Origin: Akkermansiaceae bacterium
GTDB taxonomy: Bacteria > Verrucomicrobiota > Verrucomicrobiia > Verrucomicrobiales > Akkermansiaceae
Length of the DNA stretch: 39,701 nt
NCBI GenBank assembly: GCA_043763755.1
Contig: JAYULG010000307.1
Span: forward strand, 1-39,701
Reading direction: 5' to 3'
The position numbers were made by a program, and so were the translations under genes. Under the pieces are notes generated by a model. It had not been told where the DNA came from. It ran no database searches and saw only the letters and a program-made list of their open reading frames with translations. Position 1 is the first letter of the stretch. Each line of letters opens with the position of its first letter. This document shows, one piece after another, positions 14,190 to 19,088 of this stretch.

Positions 14190-14468
14190 ATGGAATTAGA
14201 TCTTATCGATGTTCAATTCGATCTCAGGAACATCAAGCCTCGTGAACTCGAAGAGGCAATCGAGGATCCATTTTCGGTGCGTTTTCTTCCCGATAATGAG
14301 CGTGTGGACGGCGCATCGCGCTACTACGCCCTTGGGCGCACCGTGGCAGATCGCTACTTGTTTCTTTCATTCGGCACGGATGGCAAGGTCACCCGCGTCG
14401 TTGCTGCCCGCGAGATGGCTGAATCTGAGAAGAAATTCTATGATCGCAAATACGCTGAATTCCGCTAA
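14190..14468 (+). CDS. BrnT-like (DUF497) toxin
   Basis: RYYALGRT..RYLFLSF...RVVAAREM..SEKKFY matches the BrnT C-terminal pattern. Confidence 0.75.
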   Translation: MELDLIDVQFDLRNIKPRELEEAIEDPFSVRFLPDNERVDGASRYYALGRTVADRYLFLSFGTDGKVTRVVAAREMAESEKKFYDRKYAEFR

Positions 14469-14491
14469 ACCCTCGTCCCTTTCCTTTCACT

Positions 14492-14764
14492 ATGCACATC
14501 GTTACCCGCTGGTCTGAGATTCCTGAATTTTCCGATGAGGCTGCCGAAGCTGCGTTTTGGGAAAATCATGAGCTGGATGGCCGCCTCATGGCCACATCCG
14601 TGCATGAAGCGGATTCTCGTGAATCCACCACCATCACTCTTCGCTTTGATCCTCGCATGCTTTCACGCATTAAACGCATCGCTCGTGGCCGCTTTCTCAA
14701 CTATCAATCCATGATGAAGCAATGGCTGGCCGAGCGACTCGAAGATGAAATGCGCAAGCTCTGA
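14492..14764 (+). CDS. CopG/BrnA-like RHH antitoxin
   Basis: IPEFSDEAAEAAFWENH, ITLR...IKRIA...YQSMMKQWLAERL. Confidence 0.8.
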   Translation: MHIVTRWSEIPEFSDEAAEAAFWENHELDGRLMATSVHEADSRESTTITLRFDPRMLSRIKRIARGRFLNYQSMMKQWLAERLEDEMRKL

Positions 14765-16189: not shown

Positions 16190-16297
16190 TTTTCGTGAGA
16201 TCATTTTATCTGACTCAATGCGGACATTGTTCGATTTAAAAAATTCAATTGACGAGTCTCGGGTATACCTATAGCTATCGCGCCCACCCGTAAAAAT

Positions 16298-16447
16298 ATG
16301 CATCCTCATTTCCACACTATCATTTCCCAAGCTACCCGGTGGCCTTCCCGGGTATGTATGGCTGGATCCGGGAGTGATGAGTTTACAATGACAGAACATC
16401 AACAGTTTACTGTCAGAATGTCATTCAATCGGGAGGCAAGCAGGTAG
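16298..16447 (+). CDS. putative leader peptide (49 aa) of the rtcB operon
   Basis: ATG 16298 after A-rich TAAAAAT is open to TAG 16445-16447: MHPHFHTIISQATRWPSRVCMAGSGSDEFTMTEHQQFTVRMSFNREASR; the last codons overlap the antiterminator strand. Confidence 0.55.
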   Translation: MHPHFHTIISQATRWPSRVCMAGSGSDEFTMTEHQQFTVRMSFNREASR

Positions 16448-16498
16448 GAAAGATCTCAACAAGATCATCGGAATTTTTCGATAACCCTGCCCGCTTCC
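16432..16498 (+). promoter_or_regulatory. putative antiterminator (three-way junction)
   Basis: GGAGGC-AA-GCAGG (16432-16444) pairs with CCTGC-CC-GCTTCC (16486-16498), enclosing hairpins GATCT/AGATC and ATCGGA/TTCGAT. Confidence 0.6.
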
Positions 16499-16519
16499 AC
16501 AGTCGGCAGGTTTTTTTTT
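16486..16519 (+). terminator. intrinsic terminator/attenuator upstream of rtcB
   Basis: CCTGCC.GCT-TCCAC-AGT.GGCAGG followed by T9, 57 nt before the rtcB ATG. Confidence 0.8.
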
Positions 16520-16576: not shown

Positions 16577-17971
16577 ATGAACTCACAGAATTTAATCAAC
16601 CTTGGGATCCCACGAGGTGAAGCCATTTTAGCTGCCAAGAAATTCATTTATCACTTCATGATCAGCGGTGGTGCCAGCGAGCAATTGGAAGATGAAATTT
16701 TAAAGATCATTTCCGATCCATGCACGTATTTTCATGATGAATTGCGCAGCCCACTCGCTCATGCGATCTATCGTCCAGCCTTCATTCCGCGTGCCGAAGC
16801 TGCACCATGGCGGCAATGGGGTGTGGATCTAGAGCTGGAAGCAGTGAAGCAAATGATGAATGCCTGTGACCTTCCTGTGGCAGTAGCCGGTGCCTTGATG
16901 CCGGATGCGCACCCAGGATATGGCTTACCCATCGGTGGCGTTCTTGCCACAGAAAATGCAGTGATTCCCTATGCGGTCGGTGTTGATATCGCCTGCCGCA
17001 TGAAGCTCAGTGTGTATGACCTCAGAACAAACCTTATCCTCGGACAAAGGGATCGTCTTGTTAATATTCTCGAGGATGAGACACGCTTCGGTATCGGCTC
17101 GAGTTTCCAGAAACGCCGCCAGCACGCCGTCATGGACGAGGATTGGAGCGTTACTTCAGTGACGAAACGCCTGCGAGATAAAGCATGGAATCAGCTAGGC
17201 ACGAGCGGCAGTGGCAATCATTTCGTAGAGTTTGGTGCCTTCACAGTCACCTGTGACACATTAGGGTTACCGCAGGGTGAATACCTTGCCTTACTCAGTC
17301 ATTCCGGCTCGCGCGGTACAGGCGCACATGTTTGTGATACCTATAGCAAACGTGCGATGGACCGCCGAAGTGAGTTGCCAAAAGAACTGAAGAGTCTGGC
17401 ATGGCTCACGCTCGATGAAGAGGATGGCCAAGAGTATTGGAATGCTATGAATCTGATGGGCCGCTACGCCGCTGCAAATCATGAACTGATTCATTATCAT
17501 ATCGCTAAGAAATTGGGTGCTCGTGTGATTCTAGACATCGAAAATCATCATAATTTCGCATGGAAGGAAACCCATGTCATCGGAGGAGTGGAGCGGGAGG
17601 TAATCGTCCATCGCAAGGGAGCCACACCGGCTGGCGCAGGGGTTTTAGGAATCATTCCTGGCTCAATGGCTACACCAGGCTTCGTCGTCCGTGGCAAGGG
17701 CCAGTCTGAATCACTCCACAGTGCATCCCACGGGGCAGGCCGTGCGATGAGCCGCACTAAAGCGCTACAGTCATTCACATGGAGCGGCACCAAGAAACTG
17801 CTCAAAGAGCGCGGAGTGGACCTTATTTCTGCGGGTCTGGATGAGGTTCCTGGCGTTTACAAAGACATCCATAGCGTGATGGCTGCCCAAGATGATCTGG
17901 TAGAAGTGTTGGGAAGATTTGACCCTAAACTTGTGAAAATGTGCCCGCCCGGTGAGCGGGCGGAAGACTGA
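16577..17971 (+). CDS. rtcB: RtcB family RNA ligase
   Basis: MPDAHPGYGLPIGG, VGVDIACRM, GTSGSGNHF, HSGSRG, HHN, HRKGAT, IPGSM, SHGAGR. Confidence 0.96.
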   Translation: MNSQNLINLGIPRGEAILAAKKFIYHFMISGGASEQLEDEILKIISDPCTYFHDELRSPLAHAIYRPAFIPRAEAAPWRQWGVDLELEAVKQMMNACDLPVAVAGALMPDAHPGYGLPIGGVLATENAVIPYAVGVDIACRMKLSVYDLRTNLILGQRDRLVNILEDETRFGIGSSFQKRRQHAVMDEDWSVTSVTKRLRDKAWNQLGTSGSGNHFVEFGAFTVTCDTLGLPQGEYLALLSHSGSRGTGAHVCDTYSKRAMDRRSELPKELKSLAWLTLDEEDGQEYWNAMNLMGRYAAANHELIHYHIAKKLGARVILDIENHHNFAWKETHVIGGVEREVIVHRKGATPAGAGVLGIIPGSMATPGFVVRGKGQSESLHSASHGAGRAMSRTKALQSFTWSGTKKLLKERGVDLISAGLDEVPGVYKDIHSVMAAQDDLVEVLGRFDPKLVKMCPPGERAED

Positions 17972-17973
17972 CC

Positions 17974-18582
17974 ATGAAACCTATTATCCATCGTCCCATC
18001 GTGCTTGTTTTGAATCGAAACTGGCAAGCCATTCACGTCAAGACACCTGCCCAAGCGTTTTGCATGATGGCCACCGCAGCGGCAATGGCGCTCGATATCG
18101 AAGATGATGGATCCATCTGGCCTGTGACATGGGACGCATGGCTCAAGCTGCCGCTCCGTGGGCAGCACCAATCGATCCAAACATCGCGCGGTGCCGTGCG
18201 AATCCCAACGGTGGTCGTAGCGGCAAGCTATGCGCTGATTCCTCTGTGCCGCCCGCGCTTCGGTGCGCGTGGGATCTGGGCGCGCGATGGTGGTATTTGC
18301 CAATACACGGGCCGCAAGCTTTCTGCAAAAGAGGGAAACATCGATCACATTGTCCCTCGCTCACGGGGCGGCGGCTCCACGTGGCAAAATTGTGTGCTTT
18401 CCCACCGTGAGATCAATGAGCGTAAAGCGGATCGCTTGCCCCACGAGGCAGGTCTTCGTTTGCTCCGCAAGCCTACGGTGCCCCGTGCCATGCCTGCTTG
18501 CGTATTTATCCACAATACCCATGGAATCGCTGATTGGGGCCGCTTTTTGATCGATAGGAAAGTGGTGGGAACATCCACTTGA
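17974..18582 (+). CDS. HNH endonuclease (McrA-like)
   Basis: VLVLNRNWQ, RDGGICQYTG, NIDHIVPRSRGG..TWQNCV...N..K. Confidence 0.9.
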   Translation: MKPIIHRPIVLVLNRNWQAIHVKTPAQAFCMMATAAAMALDIEDDGSIWPVTWDAWLKLPLRGQHQSIQTSRGAVRIPTVVVAASYALIPLCRPRFGARGIWARDGGICQYTGRKLSAKEGNIDHIVPRSRGGGSTWQNCVLSHREINERKADRLPHEAGLRLLRKPTVPRAMPACVFIHNTHGIADWGRFLIDRKVVGTST

Positions 18583-18614
18583 AAAACTATTTAAAAGAAC
18601 AACACTACAACTCG

Positions 18615-19088
18615 ATGCCATCTTATCCGCAACCTGGAACCCAGGCTCCTCTGTTCGACGCTTATGCCGTGGGTGGCGAGTATGGCAGTGGCACACTCCT
18701 CACGCTTGAGGAACTCCTTGGTATGACTGTGATTCTCTACTTCTATCCGAAGGACGATACCCCAGGCTGCACCTCCCAAGCCTGTGGCATTCGTGATGAA
18801 TGGATAGACATTCCCGAGAAGGTAAGTGTGTTTGGTGTGAGTGTCGATTCGACAAAAAGCCACGAAAAGTTTATCAACAAATACCAGCTTCCATTCCCAC
18901 TTTTGAGCGATAGTGATCATAGCATTGCTAAGCTTTATGGTGTCTGGGTGGAAAAGAATATGTATGGAAAGACCTACTTTGGCACCGAGCGCACCACATT
19001 CATTATAGATCCTAAAGGAAATATAAAAGCCGTCTTACCGAAGGTGAAAGCAGACATGCACTTGGAGCAATTGCTGAGGATTCTGTAG
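18615..19088 (+). CDS. bcp: peroxiredoxin Q / Bcp
   Basis: YFYPKDDTPGCTSQAC, RTTFIID; alternative TTG start at 18579 overlaps the HNH stop. Confidence 0.93.
   Translation: MPSYPQPGTQAPLFDAYAVGGEYGSGTLLTLEELLGMTVILYFYPKDDTPGCTSQACGIRDEWIDIPEKVSVFGVSVDSTKSHEKFINKYQLPFPLLSDSDHSIAKLYGVWVEKNMYGKTYFGTERTTFIIDPKGNIKAVLPKVKADMHLEQLLRIL

What the first reader, a model, noticed from the sequence alone, without database searches (positions are those of the whole stretch)
16298..16519. Candidate leader-peptide transcription attenuator controlling an rtcB RNA-repair operon
Seen: a 49-codon uORF (16298-16447), too short for the ORF track, whose last codons (GGAGGCAAGCAGG, 16432-16444) can pair with CCTGCCCGCTTCC (16486-16498). 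That second segment is also the 5' arm of an intrinsic terminator (CCTGCC/GGCAGG + U9) 57 nt before rtcB, so the two helices are mutually exclusive. Two small hairpins inside the loop bring the antiterminator strands together. Inference: a ribosome reaching the stop codon occludes the antiterminator, so transcription terminates; a stalled or absent ribosome (damaged tRNA/rRNA, ribotoxin, antibiotic) lets it form, so rtcB-HNH-bcp is transcribed. Established: rtcB is induced by translation stress through RtcR/sigma54 in enterobacteria, and uORF attenuators control ABC-F and hflXr genes in Firmicutes. No rtcR is present here, and I know of no described attenuator for rtcB in Verrucomicrobiota.
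Basis: partly seen in the sequence, partly recalled or inferred. Interest (0 to 1): 0.85.

Follow-up and report, generated by a model that had tools for sequence, protein, structure and literature searches.

The report
Ribosome-sensing switch before RNA-repair gene
A short reading frame wired to a transcription stop signal sits in front of the RNA-repair gene rtcB here and in dozens of related Verrucomicrobiota, and it likely lets the repair genes (and, in relatives, banks of spare tRNA genes) be read only when ribosomes fail to finish translating it; this type of switch is known from other bacteria but was not found described for rtcB.

Summary
The stretch 16249-16519 is one copy of a conserved leader: promoter-like TTGAC-N18-TA, a 39-63-codon uORF, an antiterminator strand that overlaps its stop codon, and a terminator with a U-run. 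I found 67 distinct copies in two Verrucomicrobiota orders. They head tRNA array-rtcB-HNH operons (own genus/family) or rlaP-rtcB operons (Chthoniobacterales); this genome has no array. The frame stays open in 51 of 51 family copies, although the peptide evolves almost neutrally (dN/dS 0.76). Antiterminator pairing covaries among distant copies (0 of 5000 swaps as good) but not among close ones. Folding predicts that the antiterminator forms unless a ribosome is within about 4 codons of the stop. Against: at equilibrium the terminator wins without any ribosome in 28 of 36 copies, so the switch must be kinetic, and there are no expression data. It works like the mycobacterial whiB7 uORF attenuator; no Rfam match and no paper found for rtcB. 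The scan reported similar leaders earlier on other DNA (e1-9062478, e1-8533095, e1-9857382).

The parts
16249..16277 (+). Promoter-like element: -35 TTGACG, 17 nt, -10 TAGCTA (inferred start of transcript near 16284)
   Evidence: TTGAC was required by my search; TA at positions 24-25 was not, and is present in 92-96% of 50 leader promoters. Several tRNA promoters of this genome have the same -10 form lacking T(-7). Not mapped experimentally.
16298..16447 (+). uORF, 49 codons, stop TAG; inferred ribosome sensor
   Evidence: ATG 47-50 nt after the -35 and an open frame to the antiterminator in 51 of 51 family copies; no Pfam or NCBIfam match
16432..16448 (+). Antiterminator 5' strand (A): last four codons plus stop
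16452..16482 (+). Two small hairpins inside the antiterminator loop (possible polymerase pause or spacer; variable among homologues, CATCG conserved in the family)
16486..16498 (+). Shared strand (B): pairs with A or with C
16502..16519 (+). Terminator 3' arm (C) and U9 run
   Evidence: 97% of cells paired over 22 close homologues, with C-G/U-G/U-A at one pair; more compensatory changes in distant copies
16577..17971 (+). rtcB RNA ligase, 464 aa; first controlled gene
   Evidence: PF01139; 75-80% identical to rtcB behind tRNA arrays in relatives
17974..18582 (+). HNH endonuclease gene, follows rtcB in relatives too

Best explanation
This is a conserved leader in which a short reading frame overlaps one arm of an antiterminator, and it likely acts as a ribosome-dependent transcription attenuator that reports general translation failure to an RNA-repair operon. 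Shown from sequence: the promoter-like motif, the open uORF, the A/B/C strands, their covariation in distant copies, and the link to rtcB. Predicted: as polymerase makes strand B, A pairs with it first and blocks the terminator; a ribosome that reaches the last 4-5 codons covers A, so B pairs with C and transcription ends at the U-run (about 16517). Inferred: a ribosome that is slowed or missing anywhere upstream (cleaved or uncharged tRNA, damaged rRNA, antibiotic) leaves A:B intact, so rtcB-HNH is transcribed, along with the spare-tRNA array, Ro60-like or rlaP genes in relatives. The peptide is probably not the product; across the family it tends to use nearly all amino acids, which would make it a broad sensor.
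For: (1) Conservation independent of the search key. A metagenome pattern fixing only CATCG and the terminator gave 119 matches; the 14 with a U-run all carry the uORF end (13 with GCAGGTAG, one with the stop 6 nt later), and I saw it in none of the other 105. A model built on the 3' 91 nt hit 36 of 151 genus genomes at 68 bits or more, next best 41; the 35 other than this genome (5 of them training sequences) all have the promoter, ATG at +47-50 and an open frame to the antiterminator. (2) The frame is kept across 10 length classes (49-63 codons) in 51 of 51, while the other frames hold stops in 24 and 27 of 51 and shuffled sequence is stop-free 15% of the time. When the stop is lost, another follows within 4 codons (5 of 67). 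(3) dN/dS 0.76 over 18 disjoint pairs and 0.78 over 3. (4) In 16 Chthoniobacterales leaders A, B and C change together: GCGAGC/GCUCGC, CCAGGCA/UGCCUGG, and L278 with C/G/C at a position that is A/U/A elsewhere. Native A:B -11.1 against -9.0 kcal/mol swapped over 23 types, and -13.2 against -10.1 within that order, 0 of 5000 each. (5) Nascent-RNA folding: A:B forms with P of 0.95 or more without a ribosome in 36 of 36, and 0.03 or less with the A-site 3 or fewer codons from the stop. (6) Linkage: 31 of 33 genus genomes with this rtcB subfamily have the leader, 25 on the same contig 57-4200 nt upstream; 113 of 151 have neither. (7) Amino-acid breadth: 28 of 51 family uORFs use all 20 amino acids; one per cluster, 548 against 503+/-7 expected, 0 of 2000. 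(8) Precedent: rtcB, an HNH gene and a tRNA array are co-induced by translation stress in Anabaena (PMC8421152, PMC10272220; passages).
Against: No transcript, ribosome or reporter data. With the full leader at equilibrium and no ribosome, the terminator still wins in 13 of 20 family copies and 15 of 16 Chthoniobacterales copies, so the model needs A:B to be kinetically trapped; in this window the antiterminator does win (P(term) 0.13-0.22), but a ribosome at codons 20-25 raises P(term) to about 0.7. Among 22 close homologues antiterminator covariation is not above shuffles (178-477 of 500; within-family swap 2344 of 5000), and two A-C mismatches are common. Swap tests do not correct for kinship. 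The best partner for B lies at the stop in only 15 of 20. This window's uORF has only 17 amino acids (no K, L, Y), which is chance level. One genome (G654) has rtcB with no leader in 1770 nt upstream. The 16 Chthoniobacterales leaders were picked by eye from 28 rlaP loci; in the other 12 I looked only 330 nt upstream.
Confidence: 0.8

Rival explanations
1. The uORF encodes a small functional peptide or a specific arrest peptide; the terminator ends its short transcript, and read-through depends on one ligand or drug acting on a peptide motif.
For: dN/dS is slightly below 1; W and a PTxWS or WxMDCV patch recur; the amino-acid breadth implies some selection on the peptide.
Against: Lengths run 39-63, the middle is unalignable, W is missing in several copies and lies about 40 or about 20 codons from the stop in the two orders; L295 ends in another frame relative to strand A yet still covers it.
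Confidence: 0.08
2. The hairpin is a fixed, leaky terminator that sets a low basal level; A:B is incidental and control lies at the promoter (a TrcR-like repressor).
For: The terminator wins at equilibrium in 28 of 36 copies; Anabaena uses a promoter repressor for the same genes; single-locus complementarity is near chance.
Against: A changes in step with B and C in distant copies; apart from -35 and -10, only positions 9 and 18 of the promoter are moderately conserved, with no clear operator; the open frame and stop position would be unexplained.
Confidence: 0.08
3. In this genome the hairpin serves only as the tal terminator and the leader is a decaying relic; rtcB has its own promoter or is silent.
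For: No clear terminator between tal and the leader; the array is absent; this copy has a weaker terminator (-12.5 against -17.6 to -23.6), lacks the GUUC/GAAC extension and three amino acids.
Against: Promoter, ATG spacing, frame, stop and both helices are intact despite only 60% nucleotide identity to the closest uORF compared; no promoter-like site on + after the U-run; rtcB and HNH are intact.
Confidence: 0.04

Closest known systems
whiB7/wblC uORF transcription attenuator of Actinobacteria (bioRxiv 10.1101/2023.06.02.543512 = PMC10274678, passages read; its source Lee, Lee and Roe 2021 seen only as a reference)
   Same: Long, variable uORF; efficient translation gives an intrinsic terminator, poor translation gives an antiterminator; broad sensing set by amino-acid content.
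   Different: Different phylum; controls RNA ligase, tRNA arrays and rlaP directly, not a transcription factor; family leans to all 20 amino acids rather than alanine. Sequence relation not tested.
Anabaena trn L-array / rtcB / HNH regulon under TrcR (PMC8421152, PMC10272220; passages read)
   Same: Same cargo (long tRNA array, rtcB, HNH), induced by translation stress; L-arrays are noted in Verrucomicrobia.
   Different: Control there is a promoter repressor; the word stem 'attenuat' and 'leader' occur 0 times in both main texts. Supplements not examined.
Bacillus bmrCD / vmlR leader-peptide attenuators (PMC13689557, passages read)
   Same: uORF, antiterminator and terminator responding to ribosome-targeting drugs.
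   Different: They use an anti-antiterminator, so a stalled ribosome is needed to open them; here the antiterminator is predicted to be the default of ribosome-free nascent RNA.
RtcR/sigma54 rtcBA of E. coli and Salmonella (as summarised in PMC10272220)
   Same: rtcB induced by RNA damage.
   Different: No RtcR found in this genome.

Membership tests
Ribosome-dependent transcription attenuators (whiB7 type) | uORF in the leader, kept open across species | tested here: met
   51 of 51 and 16 of 16
Ribosome-dependent transcription attenuators (whiB7 type) | Intrinsic terminator before the first gene | tested here: met
   (by sequence and covariation)
Ribosome-dependent transcription attenuators (whiB7 type) | Mutually exclusive antiterminator overlapped by the uORF end | tested here: met
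   covaries in distant copies; not significant among close copies
Ribosome-dependent transcription attenuators (whiB7 type) | Read-through depends on uORF translation in cells | not testable with these tools
   needs 3'-end mapping and reporters
whiB7/wblC leader family itself | Lies before whiB7/wblC in Actinobacteria | tested here: not met
   downstream genes are tRNAs, rlaP or rtcB
Amino-acid-specific attenuators (trpL, hisL type) | Run of cognate codons in the leader peptide | tested here: not met
   no runs; composition is broad
bmrCD/vmlR-type attenuators | Anti-antiterminator that makes termination the default without ribosome | tested here: not met
   A:B forms in ribosome-free nascent RNA in 36 of 36; prediction only
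Rfam families (riboswitch, T-box, leaders) | Match at gathering score | tested here: not met
RtcR-controlled rtc operons | RtcR gene present | tested here: not met
   genome 93.7% complete

The most novel reading that the evidence does not exclude
Verrucomicrobiota have replaced the protein sensors of RNA damage (RtcR, TrcR) by an RNA-only test track: a leader ORF selected to demand nearly every aminoacyl-tRNA, so that cleavage or loss of any tRNA switches on the ligase that repairs tRNA and the spare tRNAs that replace it, closing a feedback loop. The same module stays with rtcB when the array is lost, as here.
Probability: 0.5. Interest if true: 0.8.

Novelty: new variant of a known kind. 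Interest (0 to 1): 0.64.

Why it matters
How bacteria without RtcR or TrcR switch on RNA repair and cryptic tRNA arrays is open. This leader gives a concrete, cheaply testable answer for two orders of Verrucomicrobiota, and a natural series of 67 variants. It would extend whiB7-type general translation sensing from antibiotic resistance to RNA repair, and could serve as a reporter for which stresses (ribotoxins, starvation, drugs) RtcB answers in these organisms.

Tried and rejected
Rfam: nothing for the leader. Sequencing runs: no RNA holder listed, which is no evidence. DNA search of 301 family genomes found only 1 relative and the exact pattern 2 of 400 order genomes: too insensitive, replaced by a covariance model. 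Weak model hits (41 bits or less): 15 fetched, and the 11 visible in the cut output were ordinary gene-end terminators, so no paralogous leaders were found; only one copy in this genome. An architecture scan of 76 rtcB loci found no further leader of this kind (3 kb or less upstream; it also missed known copies L003 and L038). A specific role for UAG or the rare AGG codon was rejected: Chthoniobacterales copies end in TAG, TAA or TGA after AGC, CGC or AGG, and a ribosome stalled there would cover A. A suspected internal frameshift in this window's uORF was rejected: it aligns without gaps to L247. tRNA remnants in the spacer: none. Paper searches with no report of an rtcB or tRNA-array attenuator: 0; 0; listings only, open-access library only.

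Full report
Observation. The antiterminator and terminator share 16486-16498 and cannot coexist; in this window the antiterminator state is 4.5 kcal/mol better. By itself that is weak evidence: the terminator is only -12.5 kcal/mol, and a shuffled G-rich 16428-16450 suppresses it in 67 of 200 trials. No Rfam family matches. The flanking genes are tal, rtcB, HNH and bcp. RtcR was not found in the genome.

Relatives. The closest rtcB genes (75-80% identical) lie behind tRNA arrays. The window's intergenic DNA found homologues 0.3-1.9 kb upstream of those rtcB genes, at the head of the arrays. Two searches that did not use the promoter or the reading frame enlarged the set. A metagenome pattern for the terminator gave 119 matches; 14 had 7 or more T in the next 11 nt and all 14 were leaders; the other 105 were dropped as chance matches. 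A covariance model of the 3' 91 nt gave 36 strong hits in 151 genus genomes. In the same sample this rtcB subfamily is in 33 genomes; 31 have both, 5 only the leader, 2 only rtcB. Of those two, one contig ends inside the array and one has no leader; one leader-only genome has array and HNH but no rtcB next to them. Record titles place these relatives in Akkermansiaceae/Luteolibacter. Weak hits in two Chthoniobacterales/Spartobacteria loci led to a search with the rlaP gene: 16 of 28 loci showed the same architecture directly before rlaP, 12 of them with rtcB seen behind it.

The uORF. After removing duplicates there are 51 family and 16 Chthoniobacterales leaders. In the family the first ATG is 47-50 nt after the -35 and is in frame with the stop in all 51, over ten lengths; the other two frames have stops in about half. 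For the second order my script chose the ORF by length and position, but the first ATG after the promoter gave the same ORF in 12 of 16. In 62 of 67 the last three codons are strand A; in five the stop has moved 6-12 nt downstream and still covers it. The peptide changes almost freely (dN/dS 0.76 and 0.78). Following a lead from earlier scan notes I counted amino-acid types: 28 of 51 use all 20, and one representative for each of 30 clusters gives 548 types against 503+/-7 in stop-free shuffles. This window's copy does not show it (17 types).

The RNA switch. Among close homologues both helices are nearly invariant, so antiterminator covariation is not above shuffles and the terminator is borderline. 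Across orders the three strands change together: A GCAGGCAGG / B CCYGCCCGC / C GCCGGCRGG in the family; A GCGAGCAGC / B CCYGCUCGC / C GCGAGCRGG in Chthoniobacterales, with further separate triple changes in L270-272, L278 and L281. Native A:B pairs beat swapped pairs in 5000 of 5000 trials overall and within that order, but not within the family; kinship is not corrected. In RNA cut at the end of B, A:B forms in 36 of 36 without a ribosome, persists with a modelled ribosome up to about 7-10 codons before the stop (two exceptions at single positions), and is gone within 3 codons. With the stop blocked the terminator forms in 36 of 36. However, on the full leader the terminator also wins without a ribosome in 28 of 36, so the order of synthesis must decide.

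Mechanism. I infer: healthy ribosome reaches the stop, covers A, B:C forms, transcription ends; slowed or absent ribosome leaves A:B, polymerase reads into rtcB-HNH (confidence 0.8). Rivals are a peptide-specific stall, a fixed terminator with promoter control, and a relic acting as tal terminator; tal and bcp are neighbours only in this genome among the 23 leader loci checked.

Known systems. The logic matches the whiB7/wblC attenuator (passages); the cargo matches the Anabaena trn/rtcB/HNH regulon, which uses the repressor TrcR (passages); Bacillus bmrCD/vmlR use an extra anti-antiterminator (passages). Six searches found no paper on an attenuator for rtcB or tRNA arrays; subscription papers and supplements were not seen. 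Earlier notes of this scan describe similar leaders before tRNA arrays and rtcB in other genomes; I could not compare their sequences. Verdict: real, conserved, a new variant of a known kind; interest 0.64.

Noticed in passing
L004 about 980-1080; L198 about 205-300 nt after the terminator; also L003, L142: A conserved, roughly 100-nt element with a tRNA-like look lies between the leader and the first array tRNA; no Rfam hit at E 0.01 in L004, L142 or L198.
   Followed up: partly
L211:5870-6673 (also L134, L212): A 268-aa protein with no Pfam match sits between the tRNA array and rtcB.
   Followed up: partly
L063:580-2004; L212, L248: TROVE (Ro60-like), SPFH and rlaP genes join the same rtcB operons in some relatives.
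   Followed up: partly
L274 and L277, 330 nt upstream of rlaP: The uORF starts about 20 nt after what looks like a tRNA-Leu gene, so the attenuator would act on read-through from a tRNA transcript.
   Followed up: no
L007:2780-3000: A different 21-codon uORF and a strong terminator 16 nt before rtcB; possibly an independent attenuator.
   Followed up: no
L300 (G635): Leader, 11 tRNA genes, then HNH, with no rtcB in between.
   Followed up: partly
genome G000, tRNA gene promoters: Several putative housekeeping promoters read TTG(A/C)C-N18-TA without the usual T at -7, which explains why the standard scan missed the leader promoter.
   Followed up: partly
window 14209-14764: Small overlapping gene pair, the second weakly like BrnA antitoxin; possible toxin-antitoxin pair.
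   Followed up: no
window 18579-19088: bcp-type peroxiredoxin overlaps the HNH stop here but was not seen next to the operon in relatives.
   Followed up: partly
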